Positions 8,263 through 64,000 of a DNA stretch of 64,000 nucleotides are shown here, piece after piece (position 1 is the stretch's first letter; each line of letters opens with the position of its first letter). Location of the stretch: positions 9,734,001 through 9,798,000 of the forward strand of contig CM114271.1 of NCBI GenBank assembly GCA_050084515.1, read 5' to 3'. The DNA is from Blasia pusilla. Taxonomy: Eukaryota. Below the pieces are notes generated by a model that was not told where the DNA came from, ran no database searches, and worked only from the letters and a program-made list of their open reading frames with translations. Position numbers and translations under genes: made by a program.

Positions 8263-9186
8263 TTGTTTTTTGCCGAAAGCAACTCGTCGGACTCGACGGG
8301 TTGCTCGACTCGACGCTTTTTCGGATGTTTTTAAGAATGCAACTCGTCGAAATCCGACGAGTTGTTCGATTGACCACAGATTTAATTAGTTTTTGGCCCA
8401 AAGCAAACCGTCGGAGTCCGACGGGTTGCTCGACTCGCCGCCTTGTCAGGATGTTTTTTTGAAGAATGCAACTCGTCAGACTGCGACGAGTTGTTTGACT
8501 GACTGCAGGTTTAGAATGTTTTTTGCCCAAAGCAACCCGTCGGAGTACGACGGGTTGCTTGCCTCGAAGCTGTTTTTGGCCAAAATCAACCTGTCAGAGT
8601 CCGACGGGTTGCATTCGGAAGTTGGTTCCCCAAATTTTGCGTCAAATTGTAGGTTTCCATTCAATTGCGCAACCTGTCAGACTCCGACGGGTTGCTATGT
8701 TCACGTTAGTATATTTAGTTGCACAACCCGTCGGAGTCCGACGGGTTGAAACCAGGCATTAGCAAATCTGAATGCAATCCGTCGGACTCCGACGGGTTGC
8801 ATCATTTAGCTCGTTGCTAGAATCCGACCTTGAGCTGTGACGACCCGTCGGAGTCCGACGGGTTGCAGGAACCCATGTAATTTCCTGACGGGTTCAGTTT
8901 GGATGTGCAAGATTGTATCGGAGGGGAATGTCACCCACCACTGGATCCAGGATTGCGATCGGGTGAGGAAGGTGCTTACGACGCACCCGGGAGAGTACAG
9001 GGGGTTCTTGTGCGATGCCCTTGTCAATCAGATGCTTGCAAAGGGTGCTCAGATTAAAAAGAAAACTTGGGCAAATAAGTTTATTTCCCAAGATGCAGCC
9101 GTAACCATCCTTTGCTGGTCGAAGATACAGGCCGCGAAGAAGAGCGCTGCACTGGAGTTGGAGCGGAGGGAGAAGGTATCTGCGTC
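8263..9186 (+). mobile_element. MULE-like element fragment: gene B intron 2 (palindrome array) and start of exon 3
   Basis: Colinear with 61950-62875; about ten palindromes at 8279-8866; IVSEGNVTHHWIQDCDRVRK coding. Confidence 0.9.
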
Positions 9187-13228: not shown

Positions 13229-16094
13229 ACTTGGGAGCTTCACTCCCAAGTCCATTAGGACTCCTGCGTCAGCTTCTCCTGGGCCTCGTTCGGCGAATGA
13301 AATTAGGCAGTAGGAAATCGAGGAGCGGGAAAGGGAAGCGGAGATGCACAACCAAGTGCTTCGGCGAGACGTGTTCAAGCGGCGCTAGATAAAGCGTAAC
13401 GAAGAGGCCGAGACGTCGCAGGCCTTGAAGAAAAGGATCGCCGACGAAAAGAGAGAAAAGAAGCGTCTGGACGCGTCGGTGAGGAGGGCAGAATTGGCTA
13501 AAGTGAGGCGGGAAAAAGGGATAGCCATTGACGATAGCCCAGCTCGTCCAACCGCAAGTGTTGAGATGCGGGAAATGTCCCCCACGAAGTCCGGGGACAC
13601 AATCAACATAGTGGAATCAACACCAGTTCAAATCGATGACGACGAGGTCATGAGGACCGCCAGCGTGGAGATGGTGGATATGGCGGAAGAAGCCGGAGAG
13701 CGGTCATTCTCGACTCCAAGCCCGGCGGAGGACATCGACCTCTATCGGATCGACGAGTTCCCAGTCGATTTGCCACCCCTATCTCGACAAGTTAGTCGTG
13801 GTCAAGAAACCGACTCCATTTTCGAGCGGGTAAGAGAGGTTCTGGGTTTTCTTAATTATGTGAATTGCAATTCATTGGGATTTCAGTGTAGCTTATTCCT
13901 CTTGTCCCGGATCTGACAGGTGGTAAAGCAGATGGCACTCATGGAGGGCCACAACGCCCCGAGGATTCCACTCTGCCGATTAAGGACAATGGAATACGTC
14001 TGCGAAATACAATCCGACGAGGACATCGCAAAGCTAAAACAATCGGCGGTGACAACATCCTACGTGAACAGTTTTCCTCCCTTCTATGTTCAACCTTACG
14101 ACGAGCATGGAACCCAAGCTCTGGTTACCGAGGAGGACTTGGAAAATCTCGACACATTCTGGAGGATGCGAAACCAGGACTTCAGAAGGCAAGTTGAGGG
14201 CACGGAATTCAGCTAGATGAGGAATCTGCATTTCTTCATCTGGGATGGAAATCACAGGTTCATGGCGTGGACCAAGTTTGCGGAGGAGCGCCCAAACTCA
14301 TTGGAGGCACATTTCTGCGTGAAGGCAGTGGTCCTTCACCCATACCCTCATCACATGGCGACGGTGGAGATGGAAATGCATGCCATGAACACGTAAGTAT
14401 CTTTAACACTTTCGCAACTCGTTGGACTCCGACGAGTTGCTCGATTGATGAATGGGTTAGGTTTGTTTAGGCAGAAAGCAACTCGTCGGACTCCGACGGG
14501 TTGCTAGACAACACGGTTTTCCGGATGTCTTTTTAAGATTGACACTCGTCGGACTCCGACGACTTGTTTGATGGAACATAAATTTAACTAGTTTTTGGCC
14601 CAAAGCAACCCGTCGGAGTCCGACGGGTTGCATTGGGGCAAAAACCTTCTAAACCTGCAGTCACTCGAGCAACTTGTCGGAGTCCGACGAGTTGCATTCT
14701 TAAAAAAACAACCTCACAAGGTTGCCTATCGAGCAACCCGTCGGACTCCGACGGTTTGCTTTGGGCCAACAACTAGTTAAATCTATGTTCAATCATACAA
14801 GTCGTCGGAGTCCGATGAGTTGCAATCTTAAAAAAACATCCAAAAAAGCGTGCAGTCCAGCAACCCGTCGGAGTCCGACGAGTTGCTTACCTGGCATTAG
14901 CAAATCTGAATGCAACCCGTCGGACTCCGACGGGTTGCATCATTTAGGTTGTTGCTAGAATCCAACCCTGAGCTGTGACGACCCGTCGGAGTCCGACGGG
15001 TTGCAGGAACCCATGTAATTTCCTGACGGGTTGAGTTTGGATGTGTAGGATTGTATCGGAGGGGAATGTCACCCACCATTGGATCCAGGACTGCGATCGG
15101 GTGAGGAAGGTGCTTACGACGCACCCGCGAGAGTACAAGGGGTTCTTGGGCGATGCCCTCGTCAATCAGATGCTTGCAAAGGGTGCTCAAATTAAGGAGA
15201 AAAGTTGGGCAAACAAGTTTATTTCTCAAGATGCAACCGTAACCATCCTTTGCTGGTCGAAGATACAGGCCGCGAAGAAAAGCACTACACTGGAGCTGGA
15301 GCGGAGGGAGAAGGTATCTGCGTCTGAGTGCGCCAAATTCATCCAAGCTGTTGTATCTACTGCAACGAAATACACGGCGAGCAAGATGCAGCGATACATC
15401 AGCATTCTCAACCCCGAACTTGGTCCGGAGTTCTACAAGGAGCTCAAGGCGATTATCACGCGTCAACGGAAGAGGGATGAAGATCCGCATGGTCGGATTG
15501 GGGAGAAAGTGTCGCTGGATCGCGTGCATCGTTTTGCGTTATCCGGGATTAGCGAGTTCAGGAGGATACGACTGATGAAAATCAGTCTCGAGGGCTCAGA
15601 GGCCCAGAAGAGGGCGGCACACCATCCTCCGGGTGTGTCCGATCCAGTGATCTCGCATTGGCTACGCGAATGGTCGTTCTGGGACGCGTTGCGGGTAATC
15701 GGGAAGTCCGTGCTGGACGGTCTGCAAGCGGAGCTCAGAAGATTAGAGCCCATTCCGCCGGAAGCAAACCTTGAAAGTTCTGGAGATTACGAGGTTTGGC
15801 TCAACGACATCCGGGACAAGCCAACCAAGAACCCAGGATTCAAGACCATGTTCAAGGTTTGCGTCCTCCCTCAGGCAGTAGAGGGTAGAGCTTGACGAAG
15901 AAGTAGAGGGTAACAAACGGGATCAAGCGAAGAAGAAGCGAGATCTACAGGAGCAGACGGCCGATAGTGTTCGACTAAAAGCTGCCCAACGGATGGTATT
16001 CAGGTACCTCATCCAGTGTAAGAATGCAGGTACGTGGGGAAAATTACCGGCAGCCTTGAAATTGTGGGCTTCGCCGCCGGATGCAGAGACATTC
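13229..16094 (+). pseudogene. Gene B exons 1-3 (introns 13830-13919 and 14393-15048) with ParB/Srx-like motif
   Basis: TGGGATGGAAATCACAGG (WDGNHR) at 14241-14258; GT-AG introns restore the frame (AC|G ATT GTA); in-frame stops; cut by LTR at 16095. Confidence 0.85.
14414..15004. repeat. Phased palindrome array in gene B intron 2 (63-64 bp period)
   Basis: Starts at 14414, 14478, 14541, 14605, 14669, 14733, 14797, 14860, then two more. Confidence 0.95.
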
Positions 16095-19090: not shown

Positions 19091-20759
19091 CGCGGAGGCG
19101 GAATCGTCCGGACGAGCAGGGAGAGAGGGTCAGACCAGGTCCTCGGCGAAGAAAATGCCACCAGAATCCGAGGTCATAGAAACCCCGACAAGCCGTCCCA
19201 GACTAGGAGAAGCGGAAGCGAGAGGTGCCTGAGTTTTCCCAAGGAGAATACAGACCCATCATCCTTGGGAAGACACAGACAAACAACGACCGGACAAGCG
19301 TCCTCCTTCGATTCACCTCTTTCTTTGGATAAGTGCCGACTTCACTTCTCAGCGTCGACAATTGCCATCGAAAAATTGACAACGCTGGGACGGAAGCTCC
19401 AACGAAACGGGCACGCTGCCTGGACGGTGAATGGAGTGGTGGAAGAGGTTGCGGTGGATCTCTTGATTGCCGATCTGCCCTCGGGGTTGCGACTTTGGGG
19501 CGAAAATCCGCGGACGAGGTACCCGAGTGGAATCTGCCGCTCACTTATGACCAGATTGCACTTTTGTTCTCCTTGCGAGATGCCTATCCGAGTGTGAGGG
19601 CTGCTTCTTGGTGTTGGACTGGAGGGAGCGGGCGAGCTCTTCAACCTCCAGTGCGTCAAGAGGTTGCTAAAGTGGAGGACGGCACAATCATGGATCATCA
19701 AAAACGAGTACCCACTCCGATCCGCAACGAGTCAGATTCGGGTAAGGCTCAATTCCTGTACAATAATTTCAATTATCTTATAATGATGTGTAGAATGAGA
19801 GTCAGTCTGGGTTTTTTCTGTCCGTGAGCAACCCGTCGGAAGGCGACGGGTTGCTGGCTTAGAGCAGCCCATGCTCGGATGAGAGCAACCCGTCGGTTTC
19901 CGACGGGTTGCATCTTTCCCACATACAGAGGAAAAACCGCGGTGTACCTGCAACCCGTCGGAACTCGACGGATTGCAGTTGATTTTGGTTTTTGGATGCA
20001 ACCCGTCTAATAGCGACGGGTTGCTCTCAGGCGAGCATGGGCTGGTCTAGGCCAGCAACCCGTCGCCTTCCGACGGGTTGCATCTGAAAACCAAAATCAA
20101 CTTGGAAAACCCAAAAGCAACTGCAACCCGTCAGGTTCTGACGGGTGGGTCCGGGACAAAACAACCCGTCGGACTCCGACAAGTTGATCCAAAGTCAGTT
20201 ATTGAAAATCTTCTCAAGACGACTTCTTTAGTTTCTGACATTGTTTCGTGCTGATTTACAGATGGACCACTCCTACGTGTACTGCTTCGTTTGGCCCGAG
20301 CACAATTTCCAGGATCTTGTGGATCCATGCTCAGATGGATACAGCTTAGATAGTTTGTACAATTCTCCCCCGGGAATTTACATGCAAGACAGTACCCCGC
20401 TTTTGGGAGGAAGGGAAAAGTCGCCAGCCCTGATGCAAACGCTCTTCGAGCTCTGCTCAAGGCCGGGTGACTTGGTGTTCGACTTAGTGGGCCTTTCAGG
20501 GGCGAGTATCAGAGGCGCCTGGCAGAGTGGCAAGAACATTCTCTGTCTTGAGGGAAGGCAAGAACTGTTTGACCTTTGCAAGGAGGCAAAGGCAGAATAC
20601 GAAAGGCTCGTTGGGGCGTACAACTCTCCACCGAAGCCGAGAGCTCCGGTTCCAGAGCCACCCTTGGTAGTGACTCCATCGTCACTTCCAACGATTCCCA
20701 AAATCGGGAGGGCAAGGCCGAAAGTGATTTTGCAAGAGCTCTCGGACGATGACGAGTGA
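19091..20759 (+). pseudogene. Gene B 3' part: beta-class N4/N6 DNA methyltransferase-like domain; intron 19742-20261
   Basis: Start matches gene B of other copies (63965-64000; 46245-46300 reversed); VDLLIADLPSG at 19454-19486; EKSPALMQTLFELCSRPGDLVFDLVGLSGASIRGAWQSGKNILCLE in the last exon 20262-20759; GTAAGG...TTACAG phase-0 intron; several frameshifts in 19091-19741. Confidence 0.75.
19828..20187. repeat. Palindrome cluster in the methyltransferase-domain intron
   Basis: Seven copies at 19828, 19885, 19950, 19998, 20055, 20123, 20161. Confidence 0.9.
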
Positions 20760-46079: not shown

Positions 46080-49000
46080 GTTGTTAAGGAGTACATCTTG
46101 GAGTTCTGATCTTTTGATCTGGCACTAAGCTCTTACATGGGACCGAACTGGTGGAACTAGCAACATTTTCACATGGGTTGTGTGCTGGCCATGTATTACC
46201 TGGTAAGACAATTACCTCAGACTCCACAGGAGTTTTCTTAGACGAGGACCTGGTCCGGCCCTCTCGTCCCGCTTGCCCGAGCGATTCCGCCTCTCGCCTT
46301 GAGGACTCAGCCTCTTTTTTGGAAGACCCCGCCTCGGAATTTCTTGATCCCCTCGCCTTCCTCAAACCTGGTGTGGATTTGTCTTTGGCGGTGACGACCT
46401 TGCCCACCAACTCCGCTGTGTCGAGGGCTTGCTCCTCCGCATCTCCTTCGAAAAAATCGTCAAGTTGCACGAAGTTTGGAATGTCGTCCCTACCTACGAC
46501 CACTGCATCATACACCACACGTAGATTTTTTTTTGTAATGTCCTCTGGGTCGTTGAAGTCCAACCAGATTGGAAAATTGTTAACCTCCCAGTCGGACATG
46601 CGCTGTCCCATCTCCATGTGGTACATGGAGAATGCCTCTCCATCAGGCGGAGAAGCCCACAATTTGCAGGCTGTTGGTAATTTTTTCCACGTTCCTGCAT
46701 TCTTACAATTGATGAGGTACATGTACACCATCCGATGGGCAGCTCTTTGTCAAGATGACTCGGTCGCCTGGTCCTGAAGATCCCACTTCTTCTTTGCAAA
46801 ATCCCATTTTTTGGCGTCTATTTCCTCATCCAGGTCTACCTGAGGGAGGATGTGATTCTTGAACATCATCCTGAATCCCGGGTTTTTTGTCAACTTATCT
46901 CTGATGTCATCAAGCCATAGTTCAAAATCTTTTGCAGCCTCTAGGTTTGCTTCCTCTGGAAGTGGCTCAATCTTCTTAAGCTCCGCTTGAAGACCCACAA
47001 GTATGGACTTCTCGAGAAGGCGTAACACATCCCACAATGACCATTCCCGTAGCCAATGGGAGATCATTGGATCTGAAACTCTCGGAGGATGGTGTGCCGC
47101 CCGCTTTTGGGCCTCAATGCCCTCGAGACTGATTTTCATCAGTCGGATTCGCCTAAACTCGGATATCCCAGACAACGCAAATCTATGCACGCGGTCCATA
47201 AACACTTTCTCGCCGATCTGACCCTATGGATCTTCGTCTCTCTTTCGGTGGCACTTAATTATCGCCTTGAGCTCCTTGTAAAACTAAGGGCCAAGTTCGG
47301 GGTTGAGAATCGCAATGTAATGCTGCATCTTGCTTGCAGTGTACTTTGTAACTGCAGATACGGCAGCCTGAATAAAGTTTGCACGTTCTGATGCTAACAC
47401 ATTCTCCCTTTGCTTCACTTCCAACGAAGCACTCTTCTTGGCGGCCTAGATCTTGGACTAACATAGGATTGTGACGGCTGCATCTTGGGAAATGAAGGTA
47501 TTTGCCCAAGTCTTCTTTTTTATTTGAGCTCCCTTCGCCAGCATCTCATTTACCATACCGTTGCCTAGGAATCCCTTGTACTTTGCCAGGTGCGTCGTAA
47601 GCACCTTCTTCACCCTATCGCAATCCTAGATCCACTGGTGGATGACGTTCCCCTCGGATACAATCCTGCACATCCAAACACAAGGTAAGAACACTGCAAG
47701 CTATAGAGTTCCTGCAACCCGTCGGACTTCGATGGGTTGCAATTCTGTCAACCCATGGGGGTCAAAATGGTAGCACTGAGATAAATGTTGCAACCCATCG
47801 GAGTCCGACGAGTCGCAACACATATCTTTGTGTTACACTTATTGCAACACTCTTGAAATTTTTAGAGAGAATTGCAACCCATCGGAGTCTGACGGTTTGC
47901 ACTCTCTTTTCGTGACTTTCTGGTCCAACCGATTTAGTCATTGGTTACAACCCGTCGGACTCTGATGGGTTGTAGAATGACTTCAATTCGGAGACAGGTT
48001 TCTCGAAAAAAATTGCACATATCAACCCGTCAGAGTCGGACGGGTTGCGCAATGCCTTGTAAACCTGAAATTGGACGCCTAAAAGCAAGCTCTTGTACTC
48101 CGACCACCTACCCTTGGAGGGAGGGGGGAATGCAACCCGTTGGAATCCGACAAGATGCTTTGGACCAAAAGTATCCAAAAAAACCGGTCAGTCCAACAAC
48201 TCATCGGACTCCGACGAGTTGCTTTTAGGCGTCTGATGATTTGTTACCTCTCGTTGTGCAACTCGTCGGAGTCCGACGGATTGCAGAAGAAATAAATCAT
48301 GGAGTCATTTTTCCACTCGTCAATGTTCGACTGGTTTCAATATCCTGCATTAATTTGGTGTGCTTGGCCACCAGGCAACCCGTCGGACTCCGACGGTTTG
48401 CTTGACTATGACATTGACCACAAACAAGATGGTGGCAAGAGACTCAAATCATTCCTGCCCATCGTTAAGCTTTCCAATTATTCAACATCTCTGACTCCGA
48501 CGGGTTGAAGCAATCAAACTTAAGGAAGAGGAAACTTACGTATTGATCTCATGCATTGCCATTTCCACCGTTGCCATGTGATGAGGAAATGGATGGAGCA
48601 CAACTCCCTTCACGCAAAAATGCGCCTCCAATGAATTTGGGCGCTCCTCTGCAAACTGCGTCCACGCCATGTACTTGTGCTTTCCACCCGAGATGAAGAA
48701 GTAAAGGTTCCGCATCCAATTAGATTTGGTTCTTTCAATCGCTCTTCTGAACTCCTGATCTCTCATCCTCCAGAAAAGATCCAACGCCTCCAAGTCCTCT
48801 TTCGTCACCAGCGCTTGGGTTCTATGTTCACCGTAAGGCTAAACATAGAACGGAGGGAAGTTGTCAACGTAGGATGCAGTCGTTGCCAACTGTTTGAGCT
48901 TTGCAATGTCCTCCTCTGACTAAATTTTGCGGACGTACTCCATTGTCCGCAATCGACATAGTGGAATTCTCGGGGCGTTCTGGCCCTCCATCAGTGCCAT

Positions 49001-49739: not shown

Positions 49740-50109
49740 GGTGCAGGTTGGGTCAGTTCTTCCTCCTCGATAGTCTAATGTGCTTATGTGCACGAGAGAT
49801 CCCTTGAAGCATTTTGTGATGAAGCGCCGTGACCCTCTAGCGGATGGGTTCGATTTTTTTGAACCCTCAAAGCGTCAGGTGCTGGATCGTTGTAACCTTC
49901 CAACAAAGTGGTGATGTAACGGAGTTTGGCAGCGGAAAGGTAACGTCAGCTGCTGCGAGGAAGAGCACATGAAATCGCGAAATGAAAAACGGAAATGATC
50001 GAAACCTCAACCTTTTATACTTTTTGAGCCGTTGAGCTGACCATTGGGTCATTGGGTCGTACCGACGGCGACGTGTCATCCGTTTTGGAACTTTGCACAT
50101 GGGAACCCG

Positions 50110-52862: not shown

Positions 52863-53699
52863 ATCTTGGGGGGCTGGTATTCTAGCAAGAGAGAGGAAGA
52901 GAGGAGAGTCTCTCTTAAAAAAAAAGGGCAGAATCCGCCTCCTCTCTTAAATTTTTTTTGACATATTTGAAATTTTTGTTTGCTTTAAAATTCAAGAAAT
53001 CTTTAGAAGAGAGTAGCAAGTGGACCACATTCGAGCCTAAAGTAACCTCCTTTTCCCAGGGGGCGAAAAACAAGTAGACATCATAAGACCACTACAAAAA
53101 TTCCTCCATCACTCTCCATGTGAGCGTAAGTTTCTTCACATTTCTTGTCTCACTCTACAGTAAGCTGTGCCCAGGGGTATTTTTAACTACTCTAACTATG
53201 GTCTCAATAGACTACGGTGCCCTCCAAGGTTTAACTTCTCGGAATATGTGGTTGATATTATGGATTGACATCTCTTCTTGCAAAAGGCATAAAATACTCC
53301 TCAATAAGGGGCAAAAGAAAGGAAAAAGGAAATGCCTTTAAATGATTGTTGACTCTTCTTGCAGAAGGCATCAATACTCATCCATAAGGGGGTTTTCCAC
53401 AACAGAACAAATCGCTCGTCACTCATGGTAGCCTTAGACTTTCATTACATCATTTGATGATGTGGGCTCTTGAATGGGTGCACAAAGTATACCATGGACT
53501 GCTGTGCGTTTGACAACTTAGTTTCACCATTCTCTCTGCCACTGACAAATGTGAACACACAAGACGACAATTGAACCAAAAGATTGATAGTTGTATGGAG
53601 TAAAGAGGAACTGATAAAAAAGAAGAAGTGATTAGACAAGACGAAAATTGAACCAAAAGATATTTAGTGTTAGGAGGAAAGAGGAATTGACGCACCCAT

Positions 53700-55030
53700 G
53701 TCCCTTCATTCAGATCCTAAATCTGAGAATCCGAGAAGCTGCACCCCTCTCAACCCATCGGAATTCGACAGGTTGCAACTCTTGGCGGTAAGAGGAGACA
53801 AAGAGAGGAAGAGAGAAGAGAGGAGGGAGGAGAGAGGAGAGAGGAAGATATTGGCAACCCCTAGGGCTCTTTTGGGTTGAAGAGAGTTTCCGACAGGTTG
53901 AAGAGAGTTTCTGACAGGTTGGAGAGAGGAAAGTTTTGACAAGTTGAAAAGGCAAATTTTTTCCAAAAAAATTTGGTGGTGAAAAAAAATTTTGAAATTG
54001 TTTTTTTTCTATTTTCTTAATCTTTTCAACCCGTCAGAAATCCAATGGGTGGCAACTTATTTGGGTTTTTTTTTATGGTTAAGTAAAAAAACTCATTTTT
54101 TGGAGTTTTTTTTAACGTTTGCAACCCGTCGGAGTCTGACAGGTCGCCATGATGCATAGAAAAAAACCCATCGGACTCCGACGGGTTGCAAATGTTAAAA
54201 AAACCACAAAAAATGAAAAATTTTCCTTAACCCAAAAAATTGCAACACGTCCGATTTCGACGGGTTGCAATAAGTTTCCTCTCTTCCAAAAAAATCTCCA
54301 AAAAAATTACTCATTTATTATCCATAATCTTCATATTTTTTGAAGAGAGATTCAATTTTTGTTTCCTTTTGTGCCTTTTTTTTGAAGAGAGACTCTCCTC
54401 TCTTCCTCTCTTCCTCTCTCCTGCCAGAATACCAGCATGCAACCCGTCGAAATTGGATGGGTTGCACCCCTTGCAAGCAAGCTCACCATAACAAAAGAAG
54501 GATTTTGAGAAGTGATCCCATTCCGCCGTGCATCCCATAAGAATCCAACAGGTTGGGAATCCCAAATGGCAATCCGACAGGTAGTAGGAATCCAACACGT
54601 CTTAGAGAAGAGAAGAAGCTTACGACTGGTTCGACAATAATATGGGAACGAGCCAAAAGTGAAGAAGCCGCCAGAATGCCTCAAAAGTTGGACTAACAGG
54701 GAAAGAGTCCGAACACTCAAGCAGCCAACTTGTCGGATTCTGAAATCTGATGGGTTGCAAAATAAACAGTGTGCGTAGATAGACCAACACAATCGATAGG
54801 ACCAAAAAAGATATTCAACAAGCTTTTACAAACACCATCATGGATTGAAAACTTCTTGTCCTTTATTACATCCGAGGGAAGCTCGGAAATGTACATTTTA
54901 TCTAGTCTATGATTTCTTCAGCCTCGTCATCTACAAATCTACTCCTAACTCTCCTAGGTTCCTGTACAAAAGGAATATCATGGGATACAAGTGGCTCCTC
55001 TGGCTGATTGTGGATGTGGATCAAAATTTT
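53700..55030. mobile_element. Subterminal fragments of the MULE-like family (GA/CT tracts, palindromes, reversed pieces of the third ORF)
   Basis: 53785-53940 resembles 9192-9310; 54575-54690 and 54800-55030 are reverse homologs of 21150-21260 and 21425-21655. Confidence 0.65.
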
Positions 55031-55425
55031 GAGGTGCGGTAAGAGGAGAGGTAGAGAGGAAGAGAGGAGAGAGGAAACTACCTTCAACCGAAATAGATAC
55101 TTTTTTTTAAGAGAGTTTCCGTTGGGTTGAAGAGAGGAAAATTTTTGTTTGAATTTTTTTGCACTTTTTTGTTCATATATTAAGCAGTCCCACAGTTTTT
55201 TTTTCCTCTTCCATATTTTGGCAACCCCTCTGAGTCCGACGAGTTGCAAATTGCACAATATTTAGAAAACGGAAAAATCAGTGGAATCATAAGTGTGGAA
55301 CCAATCACTTTTTCCATCCAAGTTCCGGAAAAAATCTATCATTTGCCCCAGGCTAAATAGAGTTCAAGCTCAAAGTGAAGGTTCAGGAAAAATAAAAGTA
55401 CAATCTAAAACCTCATTTTGCATCC

Positions 55426-58400
55426 TCAAAGTGGTTTGTTTAAAATACTTCGCACTTCTTTTAGGGACAGAATTGGTTGGTGGATTCCTACTCCTACCTC
55501 CGACTCTCTTAAAACTACCAGCAACACATAGTACATGTGCTTACAAGGGAAATACCTTTTTCCACTTGTCTCTCTTTGGACAAAGTCATCACATGAACAT
55601 GTGGGAAAGCAACAGATGTGCACCACATACACCCCTGTGACACTTGAATTTGAGTGTTGTTCTCGACCCAATACATCCTTCCTATTCCATTGCCACTCAA
55701 GACATCTTTCGTGGCGATGATCTCCATTTTTGCCTCCCGAGCTGATGCAATTCGCTTTGCTCTCTCCACCGTTGGCCTACACATTCTGTTTCTCTTCACC
55801 TCATTTCTAGACTCAAACAGAAATAATGGATTGAGATCATCCACCTTCTCCGGGTACATGTTGACATCAATCTTGGGTTGAATACAAAATACGAAGGTCT
55901 ATGTAATGGGAACATGCTCCGAACTTCCCCCGTCTACGAGTCTGAAACCGGCACTTGTAAGATTGTCCACTTCGTCTTGAGTGCAGTTTGAGCGATGGGC
56001 CAAATCGTGGGGGTATTCCCCGGAGCTCCAATTGCAGCCGGATAAGACTTTTGGAAAGCGCAAGATTCATTTGGGCAGAAGAAGTACTTCAATTGATCCC
56101 CGGTCCTCGTGAAACAATCAATGATCCCCGGACCTCGTGAAACGATCAAAGGTTTTGAGTCCCCAAAACCCAAGCAGTGGTCGTCCAGTCCTTGTACAGT
56201 TCTTATTTAGGAAAGTGCCGCATGCTCTCCTAATGCCATCATATCCTGCCCTGCAGGTGAGTCCACGTCCTGGGTTGCTCCGAGATATATGCCACCGTTT
56301 TAGGTTGCAATCCACCTCCATTAACGGAATCCCATATTGTTGAACCACCCCAGTGACAGGATGTTGCGAACTTCCAGCAACGGAGGGCTTTTGAAATAAA
56401 ACATTCACTGATTTTGGAGAAGTAACTCCATCATGGATTTGGGACGGGTCCGGGGTCCCCAAATACCTGGGCGGCGTAACTTCCTCATCCAAATCAATCA
56501 CCGGATTCGTTCCTCGATGCTGCCTCTTCACTTGCCTGAAGTCAAGATACTTATCTGGTCTCCACGAGTCTCGCTGATCGCTTCTCTACCACCATCTCAG
56601 ATGGGACATCTTGAAACCCGCCCACGAATATCCCCACCAATGTGTACGTCTTGCTCGAGTGGAGTTCCTGCTACGCACCGGTTGAAGGCTTCCACATACA
56701 TTTTTTCATCACCAGATCTCACAGCCGCCTTGACATAGAGCTCGTAGATCGATGGCCCCTTTCCTTTTGTTATGCCTTTAGTGAGGAAGATATGGGATGC
56801 TGCAGACTATAGCATTTTTCTTGCCTGGTCTTGTTGGCATGCCTCTTCAAGTGAAATTCATTGGCATGCTTGTGACGACCTCCAAGAGAAATGAACACTT
56901 TATGCTCCACTTGTGTTGGGGCAGAGGGCATTCTCATGAACGTTCAATCCCTACAACGACGGCAATGTTAGAAGGGAACGAAAATAACTCAGGAGTCAAA
57001 GAAATAAGCGACCTGTCGGATCCAGATGTGTTGCACGCCCGAGGCATCCCATGAACGACTCTGCGACCCGTCGGGTCCCGACGTGTTGTAACCTTAAACC
57101 CACCTACTGCAACCCGTCGGAACCGGACGGGTTGCAAGGCCGAGGCATCCCATGAATGACTCTGTGACCCGTCAGGTCCCGACGGGTTGCACACTTGGGT
57201 TGCACCAAAAATCTGGATGCAACCCGTCGGTTTCCGTCGGGTTGCACACTCGGGCAACCCGTCGGTTTTCGTCAAGTTGCACACTCGGGCAACCCGTTGC
57301 ATCCGACAGCTTGCTTGGTTTCTTGGGTTTGAAATCCATATAGCTCCCATGCTTCTCACCCTGAGCTACAACTTTAAAAACAATTCTCTGCGTGAGCTTG
57401 ACAAGAAAAAATAGTGAACTCACCTGCCGCATGAAGTTTCCCCATTGTCTCATACGTACAGTCCACCAACTCAACCAAGAGCACAACTCTTTGTACTTCC
57501 CCTCAATCGCATGCTTCCTCCACCACCCATGAAGTTCTTCCTGGCATTCCATGGCCTGCTTCAAGGTTTTGTTGTCCTTGCAGCGTTGGAGTAGAGTGAC
57601 ATGCTCTGTCCTCTTATTCTCCTTGATGCAAGATTTGGTGTACCGGGTCACAAACTGTTGCCAATGGAAAGCATCCAACCTTTCCCTCTCCGGTTGAACC
57701 TCTCCACCCCAGAACACTTCCCGGATAGCAATCCACCCAGGTTGTGCATTGTCTGCCATGAACCCATAAATTTCCGGAGGTGGCCTTTTGTTTTCCTTCA
57801 CCACCTCCAATAAGAGTTACCAGCACATCTTCAAACTGCCAACGTCTTCTTCCTTTACTTCACAGACAAATATAGTTTTGAGTCCCTTCTCCACATGGTC
57901 ATAAACGTGAGCACCCATCGTCAACCATCCGTTGAGTACTCTGTAGCAAATATCAAAGCTTACCTAGCTGCCGTAAAGATCTTCCCCTTCCCTCATTCGA
58001 TCTATAAGATCGAGGCCACTCGACGGACCTGTGGTTGACATTTTGAAGACATAGGCCCTGGATCCCTCGCCTCCTTGGCCCATGAACTTCCATCTCTGAA
58101 TGAATGGAAATCTGGAGTTGGCCTTGATTCTGGCGATGGCATCCATTTCGGCCGTCTTTCCATCCAGAACTCGTATTTGACGCATCAAATTCCGGAAGCA
58201 TTCAGGATCAACGAGAAATGCAAGATTTTCCCAGAGTTGTTTCTCCTCAACCGCCGTGATCTCGCCCTGTCCAGGGATTCCAAGCAATTGTTCACAAATT
58301 TGTGATGCCGTTGTGAGCTTGATCACTCCGGGCTTTGAACCCGGAGAGTTTCTGTAGACCTCGACAACTTTCTTCGCCACATCCTCCTTGATGTGTCTCT

Positions 58401-59433
58401 GAATTGCATCGGTCACAGGATGAGTGTGGGAGCCAACATGAACTGCCAGCCTTGTGTACTCTAACGTGGAGCCCAAGTCGTGGACAATGAAAAATATGTA
58501 TGCAGGACACGCCCAACGCAGGAAGGGCGATGCTTGACAATGAGGACATCGATGGCCTCCCGGCGGTATGGTGGCACCGACCTCGTATGGAGTTTCTGCA
58601 TTCTTGGGAGGGAATTGCGACGTATTGACTCGCCCGTTGCGCTCTAGATATGGGCATGTTGGACTTCTACACTCCAAGGCTCCCACGCATTGGAGGCGGG
58701 AGACAATCCAAGGACCATCTGGAATTGAAGCACTAGTCCGTTGAAGCCTGCACCATCGATGACAATCAGACTTTTTGTCCATACCATTCAGGCGTCCTTA
58801 ATCTTTCTTTTGAGTAGGAGCAGCAAGTGGAGGCAACTCAAAAATGCAATTACCATCATACGTGGGCGGCAGCTCGTCGACAAGAATGTGTTTGAACATT
58901 TTCAAGGCCAGAGACGAAAGCAAACTATTGCCTGATACTCGCAAGAGGAACGAGTAGGCGGATAGAGAGCCTGGTTGGTGTCCGACAGATCCACTGAGGT
59001 TGATAACATCCGGAATCTCTTCAAGAAGAACATTGATACGAGCGTGTGAAGTTGGAGTCGAAGCCGGATCTGCAAAGCTTGGAGTTGCAAACGTAGATCT
59101 CGGAGCACTAGGAAATTCTAGACCTTCTACTTGGGAAACAGACGAATTCAAGGGCAGGCCGTAAACTCTGTATTGACCATTTGCTAGAGGTAGGAGATTC
59201 CATACTTTACGGTGTGAGGTCGCTGGCTGGACCGTCTCACCTATTATATCTTCCGTACCGTCCACCCTAACATCTTTGGATACAAAGATGGTTCCAATTT
59301 GGAGAAGAAATGGAACAGACGGAAAATTTTCATCCACTGCTATGAAAGACTCACGAGCTCAGGGTCGAATGATTTCTGGTTGAGGAAGGGCCGCCTGATG
59401 ACTGCCACAAGTGAGCTTCACATAATTATCCAT
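55426..59433 (-). pseudogene. Full-length Mutator-like transposase (GCM-like, DDE, Cys cluster, SWIM), ~1170 codons, intron 56951-57423
   Basis: ORFs 58798-59337, 57964-58782, 57172-57810, 56118-56531, 55515-55859, 55426-55671; CSCDDFVQRETSGKRYFPCKH SWIM; DAFHWQQ; the catalytic Glu codon is TAA here. Confidence 0.88.
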
Positions 59434-60640
59434 TCCCACAAATTTTGTACGGGAGGAGGGTGAGAATGAGAATGAGAATGAGAATTTTTAATTTATAGTG
59501 AATAGGAAAACAGATACTCCTGACAGAATTTTACTGACAAGATGAATTCGGTAGGTGACATTGTCTGACACAATGGATCCAATTCTGTTGCAACACATTC
59601 AATTCTGTTGCAATGTGTCACCGGATTTGGGAAGCAGAGACGTGGGTTGCGAAGCACACTTCATTTTGTTGGAACCCGTTGGAGTCCTGGTAACTCAAAA
59701 ATTTCCACAAGCTAACCGAAGCTTGCAACCCGTCGGCTTCGGACGGGTTGCACGCTTCTTCCAAACATGGTCGAAGTTGGCAACCCGTCGCTCTCCGACA
59801 AGTTGCTTGGATATCGCTCCTTCTTGCCCGAAGATGCCGGAGGCGTGCCAACCGTCTGTTCCCGACGAGTTCCGCACCTATTTGCCCAAAGAGGGCGAGG
59901 CGTGCAACCCGTCGCCCTCCAACGGGTTGCGCAAGGGCCTCGCCTTGTGGTGCTTACATGAAGTGTGCAACCTGTCGGACTCCGACAAGTTGCGCGGGAA
60001 GCCCGTGTTCTTAACCCTTGACGAGGGAAGCGTGCAACACGACGGTCTCCGACGGATTTCCTGGGTACGCCCTGTTCCCGTCCCAAACACAGCAGAGGCG
60101 CGCAACATGTCGGTCTCCGACGGGTTGCACGGGTAACTCGCGTTCTTATCCGAAGACGACGGAGGCGCTCAACCCGTCGGTCTCCGACGGGTTGCTCGCG
60201 CACGTGGCGACGTACCCAGGACGGCGGAGGCGCGCAACCTTTCAGACTCCAACGGGTTGCCATTTTTCATCTCCGGACTTCCGTAACCTTTGGCACGTCG
60301 CCATCGAACGGACGACGGGACCCAACGGTCAGCCCAACGGCTAGAAAAGTATAAATAGGGCAGAAATCGCTCATTTCTGGTTTCTCATTTTGTGATCTCC
60401 ATTCCTCACTCTCCGGCGCAGCAGCTAATCAGATACCAAGGGGCGTTTCACACGGCGAGTCATCGCGAGTCAATACGAGGGAACGAGAGCGAGATGGTTC
60501 GACCGAACAAGAGCGAGACGGTTCGACCGAACGATCGCGAGACGATTCGAGCTACCCATCAAGGCGACTCATCTCGACATCAGCAAGGCGACTGATCAAG
60601 CGATTCATCATGGACATAGGTGGAGGCATTTCCGGGAAAA
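59434..60640. promoter_or_regulatory. Divergent promoter region of copy E with palindrome cluster
   Basis: TATAAATA 60350-60357; (GAGAAT)n ~59462-59485; palindromes at 59672-60260; 22-bp tandem GAGACGGTTCGACCGAAC units at ~60490-60550. Confidence 0.65.
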
Positions 60641-63600
60641 ATGACGAGGAAAAAATCACAAGCCAACAAGTCTGGGAGCTTCACTCCAAAGTCCATTAGG
60701 ACTCCTGGGTCAGCATCTCCAGGGCCTCGTTCGGCGAATGAAATTAGGCAGTAGGAAATCGAGGAGCGGGAAAGGGAAGTGGAGATGCACAACCAGGAGC
60801 TTCTTGCGAGACGTGTTCAAGAGGCGCTCGATAAACAGAACGCATAGGCTGAGACGTCGCAGGCCTTGAAGAAAAGGATCGCCGAGGAAAAGAGAGAAAA
60901 GAAGCGTCTAGACGCGTCGGTGAGGAGAGCAAAATTGGCTAAAGCGAGGAGGGAAAAAGCGATAGCCATTGACGACAGCCCTGCACGTCCAACCAAAAGT
61001 GTTGAGATGCAGGAAATGTCCCCGATGAAGTCCGGGGACATAATCAACATAGCGGAAACGCCAGAAGTTCAAATCACGGACGATGAGGTCATGAGGACCG
61101 CCAGCGTGGAGATGGTGGACATTGCCGAAGAAGCCGGAGAGCGGTCATTCTCGTCTCCAAGCCCGGCAGAAGACATCGACCTCTATCGGATTGACGAGTT
61201 CCCGGTCGATTTTCCAGCTTCTGTCTCAGACAAGTTGGCTGGTCAAGAAATCGACCCAATTTTCGATCGGGTAAGAGAGGATCTGGGTTTTTTGAATTAT
61301 GTGAATTGCAATTCATTGGGAATTCAGTGTAGCTTATTGATCTTGTCCCAGTTCTGACAGGCGGTAAAGCAGATGGCACTGATGGAGGGCCACAATGCCC
61401 CGAGGATTCCACTCTGCCGATTGCGGACAATGGAATACGTCCGCGAAATTTAGTCCGACGAGGACATCGCGAAGCTTGAACAATCGGCGGCGATAGCATC
61501 CTACGTTGACAGCTTTCCTCCCTTCTATGTTCAGCCTAACGACGAGCATGGAACCCAAGCCCTGGTTACAGAGGAGGACTTGGATAAGCTCGACACATTC
61601 TGGAGGATGAAAGACCAGGATTTCAGAAGGCAAGTAGAGGGCACGGAATTCAGCTGGATGAGGAATTTATATTTCTTCATAGGTTCATGGCGTGGACCAA
61701 GTTTGCAGAGGAGCGGCCCAACTCCTTGGAGGCACATTTTTGCGTGAAGGCAGTGGTCCTTCATCCATTCCCTCATCACAAGGCGACGGTGGAGATGGCA
61801 ATGCATGCCATGAACACGTACGTATCTTCTTGCTGCAAACCGTCAGACTCTGACAAGTTGTTTGGGTCGGCACGGTTGATGGGATGCTTTTGGCCAAACG
61901 GAACTCGTCTGACTCTGACGAGTTGCTCGATTGATGAATGGGTTAGGTTTTTGTTTGCCGAAAGCAACTCGTCGGACTCCTACGAGTTGCTCGACTCGAC
62001 GCTTTTTCAAGATGTTTTTTGAAGAATGCAACTCGTCGGACTCCGACGAGTTGTTCGACTGACCAAAGATTTAATAAGTTTTTGGCCCAAAGCAAACCGT
62101 CAGAGTCCGACTGCTTGCTTGACTCGCCGCCTTTTCAGGATGTTTTTTGAAGAATGCAACTCGTCGAACTCCGACGAGTTGTTCGACTGACCGCATGTTT
62201 AGTATGTTTTTTGCCCAAAGCAACCCATCGGAGTCCGACGGGTTGCTTGACTAGAAACTGTTTTTGGCCGAAATCAACTCGTCGGAGTCCGACGGGTTGC
62301 ATTCGGAAGTTGGTTTAGCAAATTTCACGTCAAATTCCAAGTTTCCATTCAATTGCGCAACCTGTCAGACTCTGATGGGTTGCTATGTTCACGTTAGTAT
62401 GTTCAATTGCACAACCCGTCGGAGTCCGACGGGTTGAAACCAGGCATTAGCAAATCTGAATGCAATCCGTCGGACTCCGACAGGTTGCATCATTTAGCTC
62501 GTTCCTAGAATCCGACCTTGAGCTGTGACGACCCGTCAGAGTCCGACGGGTTGCAGGAACCCATGTAATTTTCTGACAGGTTGAGTTTGGATGTGCAGGA
62601 TTGTATTGGAGGGGAGTGTCACCCACCACTGGATCCAGGACTGCAATCGGGTGAAGAAGGTGCTTACGATGCACCCGGGAGAGCACAAGGGGTTCTTGGG
62701 CGATGCCCTTGTAAATCAGATGCTTGCAAAGGGTGATCACATAAAAAAAGAAAACTTGGGCAAATAAGTTTATTTCCCAAGATGCAGCCGTAACCATCCT
62801 TTTCTGGTCGAAGATACAAGCCGCGAAGAAGAGCGCCTGACCGAGCCGAGCGGAGGGAGAAAGTATCTGGGTCTGAGCGCGCGGAATTCATCCAAGCTGC
62901 ATTATCTGCAGCCACGAAATACACGGCGAGCAAGATGCAACAATACATCAGCATTCTCAACCCCGAACTTGGTCCGGAGTTCTACAAGGAGCTGAAGGCG
63001 ATTATCAAGCGCCAGCGGAAAAGGGATGAAGATCTGCAAGGTCCGATTGGGGAGAAAGTCTCCCTGGATTGCGTGCATCGGTTTGCGTTGTCCGGCATAA
63101 GCGAGTTTAGGAGGATCCAACTGATGAAAATCAGTCTCGAGGGCACAGAGGCCCAGAAGAGGGCGGCACACCATCCTCCGGGTGTGTCCGATCCAGTGAT
63201 CTCCCACTGGCTACGCGAATGGTCATTGTGGGACGCGTTGCGGGTTATCGGGAAGTTTGTGCTGGACGGTCTGCAAGTGGAGCTCAAAAGATTAGAGCCC
63301 ATTCCGGATGAAGCAAACCTGGAAAGTTCTGTAGATTTCGAGGTTTGGCTCGATGACATCCAGGACAAGCCAATCAAAAACCCAGGATTCAAGACAATGT
63401 TCAAGGTTTGCGTCCTCCCTCAGGCAGAGCTTGACGAAGAAATCGAGGGGAACAAACGGGATCAAGCAAAGAAGAAGCGAGATCTACAGGTGCAGACGAC
63501 CGATTGAGTTCGAGTAAAAGCTGCTCAACGGATGGTCTTCAGGTACTTCGTCCAGTGTAAGAATGCAGGTACCTGGAGAAAATTACCGGCAGCCTTGAAG

Positions 63601-64000
63601 TTGTGGGCTTCGCCGCCTGATGGAGAGACATTCTCCATGTACGACATGGAGATGGGGCAACACATGTCTGATTGGGAGGTGGAGAATTGCCCCATTTGGC
63701 TTGACTTCAACGACCCTGAAGACATCATCGATAAGGATTTATGAGTGCTTCATGATGCAGTGGCCTCAGGACAAGACGACATCCCCAATTTTGTGTAGCC
63801 TGAAGACTTCTTCGGAGGAGATGCAGAAGAGCAAGCCCACGAGACAGTTGAGTTGGCTTCCAAGGTCCGCACAGCCAAAGACAAATCCACAATGGGTCTC
63901 AAAGGCAAGGCGAGGGGAGGGAAAAATTCCGAGGCCGAGTCTTCCCAAAGAGAGGCTGAAGATTCAAGGCCAGAGGTGGAATCGTCCGGGCGAGCGGGGA
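60641..64000 (+). pseudogene. Gene B of copy E, exons 1-3 (introns 61271-61360 and 61818-62598)
   Basis: ATG at 60641; GT-AG introns; 16-nt deletion at ~61680 removes WDGNH; stops; last bases overlap the sequence at 19091 onward. Confidence 0.87.
61834..62555. repeat. Phased palindrome array in gene B intron 2
   Basis: About twelve copies; exact 64-bp period at 61900, 61964, 62028, 62092, 62156, 62220. Confidence 0.95.

What the first reader, a model, noticed from the sequence alone, without database searches (positions are those of the whole stretch)
61834..62555. CRISPR-like geometry in an intron: 27-bp palindrome plus 36-37 bp spacers at a fixed 64-bp period
Palindromes start at 61900, 61964, 62028, 62092, 62156, 62220, and at 63-64 bp steps from 14414 to 14860. 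Spacers have diverged in sequence but not length, while the repeat stays conserved. 63-64 bp is about six helical turns, which would put bound proteins on one face of the DNA. Processing of intronic RNA into hairpin-bounded units is an alternative.
Basis: partly seen in the sequence, partly recalled or inferred. Interest (0 to 1): 0.8.

Follow-up and report, generated by a model that had tools for sequence, protein, structure and literature searches.

The report
Palindrome arrays inside a Mutator-like transposon
The evenly spaced 27-base palindromes are real, but they are not CRISPR-like: they are tandemly duplicated, probably protein-binding, motifs that sit in the non-coding parts of a very abundant two-gene Mutator-like transposon of a eukaryote.

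Summary
The palindrome GCAACCCGTCGG-A(G/C)T-CCGACGGGTTGC is real: 88 matches in the window against 0 in shuffles. The 64-bp steps at 61900-62220 and 14414-14860 are confirmed. The array is a tandem repeat with a true period of 128 bp, in which two spacer types alternate. It lies in a probable GT..AG intron (61818-62598) of one gene of a repeat unit of at least 9 kb, present in at least 4 copies here. About 0.39% of the reads sampled from one whole-genome run lie on this unit.

The unit carries two divergent genes. One is a transposase whose predicted fold best matches an IS256-family (Mutator-related) transposase. The other is an orphan gene under purifying selection (dN/dS 0.11).

The same palindrome forms arrays of other periods (35, 46-55, 67, 62-117 bp) after the transposase gene, between the genes and in the intron. 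Young copies show no extra conservation of the palindrome. Between two old subfamilies it is the only conserved part of the intron.

Three distinct distant relatives from metagenomes carry their own, different palindromes in similar places. Best reading: amplified binding sites for an element-encoded protein, as in VANDAL/VANC. Binding itself is inferred, not shown.

The parts
61835..62554 (+). The array of the finding: 12 copies of the 27-nt palindrome. Seven sit in a 64/128-bp tandem repeat; the last five are at 54, 83, 54, 51, 66 bp.
61818..62598 (+). Probable intron (GT at 61818-61819, AG at 62597-62598) of the accessory gene. It contains the whole array.
   Evidence: Sequence read. The frame is open across 61817|62599. 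The same boundaries occur in unit 2 (14393-15048) and unit 4 (48539->47666). No RNA joint was seen, but depth was only 1-3 reads.
60833..61817 (+). Upstream coding part of the accessory gene in unit 3 (broken copy). It ends with the exon bearing the WDGNH-type motif region.
   Evidence: tblastn of unit-2 ORFs. RNA reads have their first mate on the - strand here, so the RNA is probably from the + strand.
62599..63507 (+). Downstream exon of the accessory gene in unit 3. It is intact over 286 aa in unit 2 at 15035-15895.
   Evidence: dN/dS is 0.106 between unit 2 and unit 4, against 1.1 and 1.7 in shifted frames.
57370..58965 (-). Transposase gene of unit 3, the part aligned to homologue P0002 (residues 118-659). 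Other copies: 3127-4722 (-), 11561-12646 (-), 51553-52914 (+).
   Evidence: tblastn. Model of P0001 has pLDDT 78. Foldseek top hit is the ISCth4 transposase, E 5e-4, prob 0.99. WRKY domain Z 6.7 and integrase cores Z 6.9.
57063..57297 (.). Palindrome cluster and 35-bp array directly 3' of the transposase gene. Paralogues at 2801-2983 and 11142-11471.
59725..60260 (.). Palindrome array of about 67 bp period between the two divergently transcribed genes. Paralogues at 5510-5932 and 50111-50508.
   Evidence: Strand of RNA reads on either side.
8264..8866 (+). Paralogous intron array in unit 1, 91-93% identical to 61948-62560.
14414..15004 (+). Paralogous intron array in unit 2, with an internal inverted duplication centred on the palindrome at 14669-14695.
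47714..48508 (-). Intron array of the diverged, inverted unit 4: 10 palindromes at spacings of 62-117 bp. Spacers are unalignable to units 1-3.
55031..55051 (+). Left boundary of the repeat unit (GAGGTGCGGTAAGAGGAGAGG). It is also at 9187, with a different left flank.
19828..20187 (.). A further cluster of 7 palindromes, probably the distal part of unit 2 beyond an insertion at 16095.
   Evidence: only a 66-69-bp link to unit 4, so the assignment is weak

Best explanation
The 27-nt palindrome is a cis-acting recognition motif of a high-copy, two-gene DNA transposon of the Mutator/IS256 kind. Tandem duplication, by slippage or unequal exchange between the palindromes, has multiplied it in the element's non-coding parts: after the transposase gene, between the two divergent genes, and in an intron of the accessory gene. 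That last site is the 64/128-bp array of the finding.

I infer that a dimer of an element-encoded protein binds each palindrome. The candidates are the orphan accessory protein or the transposase through its WRKY-like N-terminal domain. Dense arrays would load many copies onto the element's own regulatory DNA, for self-specific activation or anti-silencing, or for assembling the transposition complex.

Shown: the arrays; their place in a transposon; the abundance of the element; conservation of the palindrome alone between old subfamilies; different palindromes in relatives; turnover and inversion of arrays.

Inferred: protein binding, which protein binds, and the purpose.
For: (1) Transposon context.
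- The unit occurs at least 4 times in the window at 75-95% identity.
- 49,070 of 12,434,590 sampled whole-genome reads (0.39%) lie on 55001-64000 at >=90% likeness, at depth 350-1340.

(2) Transposase.
- P0001 has 751 homologues at E<=1e-3.
- The model has pLDDT 78.
- The best Foldseek hits are ISCth4 (IS256-family) transposase chains, E 5e-4, prob 0.99, followed by retroviral integrase cores.
- VIA-align gives the AtWRKY1 domain Z 6.7 over 61 residues for model residues 19-142.

(3) Specificity. All 93 palindromes lie in 18 clusters within this element family. None lies in the gypsy region at 22.6-44 kb.

(4) Selection in the element's lineage.
- Between unit 2 and unit 4 the exon next to the intron has pS 0.61 and dN/dS 0.106.
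- With palindromes masked, the introns share no HSP better than E 0.23.
- Yet the 10 palindromes in the unit-4 intron are 87.7% identical to the common consensus.

(5) Relatives. The window's motif is absent from all 80 metagenome loci that encode transposase homologues. However, 4 of the 80 (3 distinct elements) have their own repeated 28-30-nt palindromes:
- in L010, directly 3' of the transposase;
- in L040, in 51-52-bp arrays; L027 holds a shorter run of the same motif;
- in L026, between the genes.
The accessory exon is conserved and divergent to the transposase in L026/27, L040 and L033/34/44.

(6) Precedent. In VANDAL21, a Mutator-like element, the VANC21 protein binds a short motif. 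That motif accumulates as fast-changing tandem repeats in introns, intergenic and terminal non-coding regions (PMC5735166, passages read). Muta1 transposase binding increases with the number of subterminal repeats and depends on a palindromic terminal motif (PMC5499845, passages read).
Against: - No binding was tested.
- The accessory protein has no Pfam family, no homologue in the word-index searches and no usable model, pLDDT 40. Nothing shows that it binds DNA.
- Between young copies the palindrome is no better kept than the spacers: 250/269 = 92.9% against 309/337 = 91.7%, flank 92.7%. That is expected for dead copies, but it also fits neutrality.
- Covariation in the stem is weak. One pair (6-22) accounts for 9 of the 14 compensatory cells, and 14 of 500 shuffles reach the observed score.
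- Only 4 of 80 related loci showed repeated palindromes. Many of those loci are under 3 kb, and no background rate was measured.
- The element's right end, terminal inverted repeats and target-site duplication were not found, and Pfam's MULE domain is not hit.
Confidence: 0.5

Rival explanations
1. A by-product without function. It is a hairpin-prone minisatellite that grows and shrinks by slippage. Its palindromes are kept alike by concerted evolution: gene conversion between copies, or repair templated within the hairpin.
For: - The array is a 128-bp higher-order tandem repeat.
- Young copies show equal decay of palindrome and spacer.
- Whole-genome reads show many length variants, with joints in and beside the arrays, several at palindrome edges. 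Examples: goes back 35, 70, 132 and 140; skips 35, 73, 199 and 203.
- The reads also show 'opposite strands' joints: 57219<->60170 in 73 reads, 61962<->62439 in 23, 62218<->62439 in 16.
- There is a 156-nt inverted duplication in unit 2.
- 76 of 294 deviations from the consensus are CpG transitions, which looks like ordinary decay.
Against: - The palindrome survives between subfamilies whose synonymous sites differ by pS 0.61, while everything else in the intron is unalignable.
- It stands in three different array contexts per element.
- Three distinct distant relatives have different palindromes in similar places. Conversion limited to 27-bp patches across subfamilies would be needed to explain this.
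Confidence: 0.22
2. The palindromes act as RNA hairpins in the intron and untranslated regions of the element's transcripts. They could be small-RNA precursors or sites for an RNA-binding protein.
For: - All three array sites could be transcribed. RNA reads cover the intron array at up to 7.7-fold in X20, first mate on the - strand.
- The intron RNA folds far better than shuffles, -338 kcal/mol, z -13.4.
Against: - The RNA over the array comes from a variant copy: 62032 C>T in 38 of 40 reads of X20, against 2 of 439 DNA reads. It also carries other spacers, so it says little about this locus.
- G-U and A-C mismatches are balanced on the sense strand: 29 v 25, 6 v 12, 15 v 16.
- A 12-bp stem is short for Dicer-type processing (general knowledge, not tested).
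- No Rfam family comes near its gathering score; the best is 30.5 bits against 140.
Confidence: 0.13
3. A CRISPR-like adaptive array: conserved repeats that separate acquired, unique spacers.
For: Only the geometry: a 27-nt palindromic repeat with 36-37-nt spacers at a regular period.
Against: - Spacers are two alternating related types, 81-89% identical at i,i+2.
- The repeats are only 79% alike.
- The whole array is copied with its spacers in other units at 91-93% identity.
- The 36 ORFs scanned in the window gave only retrotransposon domains or nothing.
- The array lies within a spliceosomal-type intron of a transposon gene.
Confidence: 0.01

Closest known systems
VANC target-motif tandem repeats of Arabidopsis VANDAL21/VANDAL6 (Mutator-like elements). 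Sources: PMC5735166 and PMC10398659, passages read.
   Same: - A Mutator-type element with accessory gene(s).
- A short motif accumulated as tandem repeats in introns, upstream and intergenic regions and other non-coding parts.
- Repeat number and organisation differ between related copies.
- Related families have different motifs.
   Different: - The motif here is a 27-nt palindrome, not an asymmetric 8-9-mer.
- The accessory protein shows no detectable similarity to anything named.
- The transposase is outside Pfam's MULE model.
- Binding and demethylation are untested.
Subterminal repeats and palindromic terminal motif of the MULE Muta1. Source: PMC5499845, passages read.
   Same: Repeated short sites in a MULE that the transposase binds. 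More copies give stronger binding, and palindromic symmetry matters for binding.
   Different: Muta1 has 12-bp repeats inside a 145-bp terminal inverted repeat. Here the arrays lie 2.0-7.5 kb inside the unit's left boundary at 55031, and the unit's ends are not defined.
TnpA sites of En/Spm (CACTA) elements, and AtMu1c transposase acting as a sequence-specific activator. Source: bioRxiv 10.64898/2026.08.24.746577; abstract, section 7 and passages read.
   Same: An element-encoded DNA-binding protein recognises repeated motifs in the element's own non-coding DNA and relieves silencing.
   Different: A different superfamily (Spm), or sites confined to terminal inverted repeats (AtMu1). No palindromic arrays are described in the passages I read: 0 occurrences of 'palindrom'.
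Short Interrupted Repeat Cassettes (SIRC) of Arabidopsis. Source: PMC10342631, abstract read.
   Same: CRISPR-like geometry in a eukaryote, with short direct repeats interrupted by other sequence. The authors trace it to the internal structure of transposons.
   Different: SIRCs are described as independent elements derived from MITEs. Here the arrays are integral parts of an autonomous-type element and the repeat is a hairpin palindrome.
Bacterial CRISPR arrays
   Same: Palindromic repeat of similar length and regular spacing.
   Different: See the membership test. The spacers are not unique, there are no cas genes, and the context is a eukaryotic transposon.
Plasmid partition sites such as sopC/parS bound by ParB-family proteins (recalled from general knowledge; no call).
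   Same: Tandem repeats that each hold an inverted repeat bound by a dimeric protein encoded next to them.
   Different: This is only a lead. The accessory exon's WDGNH(R) motif gave Pfam DUF1015 at E 0.041, below its cut-off, and an Atlas cluster with ParB_N on 34% of members at score 0.90. A profile search of PDB sequences found no ParB. That DUF1015 belongs with ParB-like folds is my recollection.

Membership tests
CRISPR array | Spacers are unique, unrelated sequences | tested here: not met
   Alternate spacers are 81-89% identical, and all spacers average 63% against 51% for shuffled ones. The 128-bp period gives 87% matches.
CRISPR array | Near-identical repeats within one array | tested here: not met
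   Palindromes of the array are 79% alike pairwise.
CRISPR array | Prokaryotic locus with cas genes nearby | tested here: not met
   36 ORFs were scanned against Pfam. They gave only Retrotrans_gag, zf-CCHC, RVT_1, RNase H and rve, or nothing. The array has GT..AG intron boundaries.
Mutator/MULE (IS256-related) DNA transposon | DDE transposase with an RNase H-like core related to IS256/MuDR | tested here: inconclusive
   The Foldseek top four hits are ISCth4 transposase chains, best E 5e-4 and prob 0.99, but TM is only 0.16-0.23. VIA-align gives ISCth4 Z 6.1 and integrase cores Z 6.9. There is no Pfam MULE hit in P0001-P0003 or in 18 homologues, and no PDB sequence hit.
Mutator/MULE (IS256-related) DNA transposon | N-terminal WRKY/GCM1-type zinc-finger DNA-binding domain | tested here: inconclusive
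   AtWRKY1 domain Z 6.7, rmsd 2.3, 61 of 61 residues aligned, model residues 19-142. Z under 8 can be a common arrangement, according to the tool's note.
Mutator/MULE (IS256-related) DNA transposon | Terminal inverted repeats and 8-11-bp target-site duplication | tested here: inconclusive
   A left boundary is shared at 9187 and 55031, with no inverted partner in the window. No complete copy lies in the window. The size of the duplication is recalled.
VANDAL/VANC-type anti-silencing system | Motif arrays as variable tandem repeats in introns and intergenic parts of the element | tested here: met
   Arrays lie 3' of the transposase gene, between the genes and in the intron. Length variants are seen in whole-genome reads. 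A different organisation is seen in unit 4.
VANDAL/VANC-type anti-silencing system | Accessory protein homologous to VANC | tested here: inconclusive
   No VANC sequence was compared directly. The accessory ORFs have no Pfam hit and no homologue at E<=1e-3 in two word-index searches.
VANDAL/VANC-type anti-silencing system | Protein binds the motif and causes local loss of DNA methylation | not testable with these tools
   This needs ChIP/EMSA and methylome data.
Tandem repeat (minisatellite with higher-order unit) | Head-to-tail copies with homologous units and copy-number variation | tested here: met
   Tandem Repeats Finder gives 64 bp x 5.5 copies and 128 bp x 2.1 copies. Read joints that go back or skip by whole units.
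Known RNA families (miRNA precursors and others, Rfam 15) | Score at or above the family's gathering threshold | tested here: not met
   Best is MIR6140 at 30.5 bits against 140. There were 6 weak matches on 55001-64000.
ParB/Srx-like protein with parS/sopC-like sites | ParB N-terminal domain in the adjacent gene | tested here: inconclusive
   DUF1015 at E 0.041, 13.2 bits against a cut-off of 25.8. Atlas feature scores of 0.90 to DUF6551 and to a cluster with ParB_N on 34% of members. Nothing in PHROGs, NCBIfam or the PDB profile search.

The most novel reading that the evidence does not exclude
A widespread, so far unnamed group of two-gene Mutator-like transposons has evolved its own self-recognition system, independently of the plant VANC proteins. 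An orphan accessory protein with a conserved WDGNH motif, possibly of ParB/Srx type, would bind as a dimer to lineage-specific 27-30-nt palindromes. These are amplified into arrays in the element's introns and intergenic DNA. The arrays would then work like plasmid sopC/parS platforms, or like VANC target repeats, and protein and palindrome would co-evolve from lineage to lineage.
Probability: 0.15. Interest if true: 0.8.

Novelty: new variant of a known kind. Interest (0 to 1): 0.5.

Why it matters
If the reading holds, amplified arrays of an element's own recognition motif in its non-coding DNA are not a peculiarity of Arabidopsis VANDALs. They would recur in a distant branch of Mutator-like elements, with a hairpin-forming palindrome as the motif.

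Three things would follow:
- A testable protein-DNA pair with natural specificity variants, namely the window's motif, L010's, and the one shared by L026/27 and L040.
- An explanation for CRISPR-like geometries that sequence readers will keep meeting in eukaryotic repeats.
- An example of how self-complementary motifs make a transposon structurally unstable, through inversions and deletions between any two copies.

It also marks a transposase family of several hundred detectable members that Pfam does not yet cover.

Tried and rejected
- Whole genome: none is held, so no genome-wide spacing histogram could be made.
- Sequencing runs: no RNA holder was listed among indexed runs.
- RNA reads: 160, 262 and 166 reads were laid from X19, X20 and X21. 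None of the 15 joints shown spans 61817->62599. A further 126 joints were not shown, and exon depth was only 1-3. Splicing is therefore neither shown nor excluded.
- Accessory protein P0154: no homologue in the 'longer' or 'near' searches. The Atlas gave no usable hit. The AlphaFold model from 7 near-identical rows failed at pLDDT 40 and was not searched.
- ParB lead: nothing in PHROGs or NCBIfam. The PDB profile search gave only spurious matches to an epitope-tag-like stretch.
- P0001 family against PDB sequences: 0 hits.
- Literature search for the half-site strings: 51 papers held one of the two strings; the 20 listed looked unrelated by title.
- Search for 'Mutator-like' + palindromic + tandem repeats + transposase binding: 13 papers. 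None describes internal palindrome arrays, judging by the titles and abstracts listed.
- First related-loci search with 53 rows: the alignment was too diverse. It was repeated with 9 rows.
- Stem covariation as a test of structure: weak, essentially one inherited variant.
- Inverted partner of the unit's left end: none in the window.
- Tandem repeats near transposase homologues: 22 of 80 loci had an array of period >=15 and >=2.8 copies. There was no background for comparison, so this is not used as evidence.
Full report
**Observation**

The 27-mer GCAACCCGTCGG-A(G/C)T-CCGACGGGTTGC is a perfect palindrome apart from its central base. A degenerate 25-mer core matches 88 times in the window at <=3 mismatches, against none in 100 shuffles. 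Of the half-sites, 83 pair up, 80 of them with a constant 3-nt centre. Pooling both searches gives 93 sites in 18 clusters.

The starts at 61900, 61964, 62028, 62092, 62156 and 62220 are exact, and so is the run 14414-14860 in steps of 63-64 bp. Single palindromes fold as DNA hairpins of -11.6 to -14 kcal/mol, z -6.2 to -7.9.

Three points of the description need correction.
- The period is fixed only for the first seven units. The last five intervals inside 61834-62555 are 54, 83, 54, 51 and 66 bp.
- The spacers are homologous to one another and alternate between two types. Tandem Repeats Finder scores a 128-bp period at 87% matches against 69% for 64 bp. Spacers two units apart are up to 81-89% identical. 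All spacers average 63% against 51% for shuffled spacers, and the palindromes in the array are 79% alike.
- The same palindrome forms arrays with periods of 35, 46-55 and 67 bp elsewhere.

**Context**

The window is eukaryotic repeat DNA. A self-comparison shows a unit of at least 9 kb in at least four copies:
- unit 1, about 1796-9195;
- unit 2, 9187-16095 and probably beyond;
- unit 3, 55031 to the window's end;
- unit 4, 46268-52861, inverted and 74-85% identical to the others.

Ty3/gypsy retrotransposons fill 22.6-44 kb and carry no palindrome. No genome is held for the window.

I laid one whole-genome run on 55001-64000 at >=90% likeness. It placed 49,070 of 12,434,590 sampled reads (0.39%) at depths of 350-1340. 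Only 300 of them were >=99% alike. The unit is therefore a high-copy family; hundreds to thousands of copies is an inference that depends on the unknown genome size. Depth over the array of the finding (347-456) is lower than over its flanks (659-827). This array type has therefore not been amplified on its own.

**The element**

Unit 3 has two genes that RNA reads suggest are transcribed divergently. Left of about 59 kb the first mates lie on the + strand; right of about 60 kb they lie on the - strand. The library's strand convention is assumed.

The minus-strand gene (57370-58965, aligned to homologue residues 118-659, no intron) encodes P0001.
- The family has 2 homologues in the word-index search and 751 at E<=1e-3 in the exhaustive profile search.
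- None of the 21 family members scanned hits Pfam.
- An AlphaFold model from 53 rows has pLDDT 78.
- Its four best Foldseek matches are chains of the ISCth4 transposase, the best at E 5e-4 and prob 0.99, followed by retroviral integrase cores.
- VIA-align adds a plant WRKY domain at Z 6.7 for residues 19-142 and integrase cores at Z 6.9 for residues 286-390.
- From recall, ISCth4 is an IS256-family enzyme, the bacterial kin of Mutator transposases. A WRKY-type finger followed by a DDE core is the usual build of MULE transposases.
- I therefore call the element Mutator-like. Membership is unproven: TM-scores are low, and ends and target-site duplication were not found.

The plus-strand gene has no recognisable family, but it is a real gene. 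The 280-codon exon after the array has dN/dS 0.106 between units 2 and 4 (pS 0.61, pN 0.12), against 1.1 and 1.7 in the other two frames. The transposase gives 0.35.

**Where the arrays lie**

Each unit has the palindrome in three non-coding places:
- directly after the transposase stop (57063-57297, including a 35-bp array);
- between the two genes (59725-60260, about 67 bp period);
- at 61835-62554.

The third lies within 61818-62598, which begins with GT and ends with AG. Joining 61817 to 62599 keeps the frame open...HAMNT|IVLEGSVTHHW.... The same boundaries are present in unit 2 (14393-15048) and in the diverged unit 4 (48539->47666).

I accept the intron as probable. RNA reads did not show the joint, but exon depth was only 1-3. 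The RNA that does cover the array (up to 7.7-fold) carries variants that are rare in DNA, for example 62032 C>T in 38 of 40 RNA reads of X20 against 2 of 439 DNA reads. It also carries other spacers, so it comes from another copy.

**Is the palindrome conserved beyond its surroundings?**

Between young copies it is not. In unit 1 against unit 3, palindrome positions are 250/269 = 92.9% identical, spacers 309/337 = 91.7% and the flank 92.7%.

Between the old subfamilies it is. With palindromes masked, the introns of units 3 and 2 share no HSP with that of unit 4 better than E 0.23. Yet unit 4 keeps 10 palindromes that are 87.7% identical to the common consensus, at spacings of 62-117 bp. Neighbouring synonymous sites differ by pS 0.61. 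The motif, not the spacing, has been maintained in the element's lineage.

Stem covariation adds little. One pair (6-22, C-G to T-A) accounts for 9 of the 14 compensatory cells. On the sense strand, G-U and A-C mismatches are balanced.

**Dynamics**

Because each site is its own inverted repeat, any two can recombine in either orientation.
- The unit-2 array contains a 156-nt inverted duplication, 90% complementary, centred on a palindrome.
- Whole-genome reads show length variants (goes back 35, 70, 132, 140; skips 35, 73, 199, 203).
- They also show strand-switching joints whose ends fall at palindromes: 57219<->60170 in 73 reads, 61962<->62439 in 23, and 62218<->62439 in 16.

**Relatives**

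A scan of metagenome contigs gave 170 stretches that encode relatives of the transposase. The best 80 were kept, at 24-48% identity.
- None of the 80 has the window's motif.
- A relaxed hairpin screen found a repeated palindrome in 4 of the 80, which represent three distinct elements.
- L010, the closest relative, has three copies of a 28-nt palindrome (30 nt at 1279-1308) within about 200 bp after the transposase.
- L040 has a 51-52-bp array of TTCAACTTT...AAAGTTGAA, and L027 holds a shorter run of the same motif.
- L026 has CCTCCAACTTTTGG...AAAGTTGGAGG sites in a second cluster near the accessory exon.
- The accessory-gene exon with the motif WDGNH has homologues in L026/27, L040 and L033/34/44, divergent to the transposase as in the window.

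Caveats: many of the 80 loci are too short to show flanks, and I measured no background rate.

**Mechanism**

The best-supported reading is that the palindrome is a binding motif for a dimeric, element-encoded protein, multiplied by tandem duplication in the element's regulatory DNA.

This works like two known systems. The first is the VANC target repeats of VANDAL21: a short motif bound by VANC21, accumulated as fast-changing tandem repeats in introns, upstream and terminal non-coding regions (PMC5735166 and PMC10398659, passages read). The second is the transposase-binding subterminal repeats of Muta1 (PMC5499845, passages read). A 2026 preprint reports that a Mutator transposase alone can bind and hypomethylate its cognate elements (10.64898/2026.08.24.746577, abstract and section 7 read).

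Binding, the identity of the binder and the purpose are all inferences.

Rivals:
- a functionless hairpin minisatellite kept alike by conversion;
- an RNA-level role for the hairpins;
- the CRISPR analogy, which the spacers, the copies and the context exclude.

The helical-phase idea (64/10.5 = 6.1 turns) does not generalise, because the same motif is spaced at 35, 46, 55, 67 and 62-117 bp.

**A lead I could not settle**

The exon just before the intron reads ...FFIWDGNHRFMAW.... It recalls the DGxHR motif of ParB/Srx-type domains; this is my recollection. Pfam gives only DUF1015 at E 0.041, below its cut-off. The Atlas gives feature scores of 0.90 to a DUF6551 cluster and to a cluster in which 34% of members carry ParB_N. 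PHROGs, NCBIfam and a PDB profile search give nothing. In unit 4 the motif reads SGGKHK.

**Verdict**

This is a real and non-random feature, and it is explained as part of a transposon. It is not CRISPR-like. The interest lies in a probable new case of motif arrays for self-recognition in an unannotated Mutator-like family.

Noticed in passing
window 52873-54440; also 22600-22615: A short element of about 1.57 kb is bounded by inverted ends. The 16-mer GAGGAGAGTCTCTCTT occurs at 52901 (+) and 54385-54400 (-), extended by eye to about 50 bp. The element carries the same palindromes (53750-54268). A third copy of the end, at 22600-22615 (-), abuts the gypsy LTR that starts at 22616. It may be a non-autonomous relative sharing the palindrome.
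   Followed up: partly
window 14217-14260, 61640-61700, 1-60 (-), 48700-48760 (-): The accessory-gene exon has the conserved motif FFIWDGNHRFMAW, which reads ISGGKHKYMAW in unit 4 and VWDGNH(Q/H)L.AW in metagenome relatives. There are weak, sub-threshold hints of a ParB/Srx-like domain, not confirmed.
   Followed up: partly
window 3396-5349 v 50931-52861, and 14981-16095 v 46629-47737: Units 1-3 and unit 4 differ much less in the transposase gene (84% nt identity, pS 0.25) than in the accessory gene (77%, pS 0.61). This suggests a mosaic element, or recombination between subfamilies.
   Followed up: no
window 7290-8266; 16095-17118 and 29247-30271; 22616-23056, 32628-33340, 37198-37947: Repeats of about 0.4-1 kb are shared with the gypsy region, probably LTRs. 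They interrupt unit 1 just before its intron array and unit 2 at 16095, giving nested insertions.
   Followed up: no
window 1-1549 (-): An inverted partial copy of the accessory-gene side of the unit (matching 61680-60162) ends within the palindrome cluster at 1451-1542. It is followed from 1796 by unit 1, which starts at the equivalent of 56118. This is a rearrangement whose breakpoint lies at a palindrome array.
   Followed up: no
window 28963-29069, 32457-32486: There are tandem repeats of a different short motif (AGCGAAGCACGAAG, and a 41-bp unit with CGAAGCA repeats) inside the retrotransposon region. They are unrelated to the palindrome.
   Followed up: no
L026/L027 14706-15640; L032 7979-8514; L033/34/44 14098-14301; L007 453-887: Several metagenome relatives of the element have long arrays of other short units (25 bp x 18, 49 bp x 10, 20 bp x 10, 16 bp x 27) within a few kb of the transposase gene. 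Whether these are motif arrays of the same kind was not examined.
   Followed up: no
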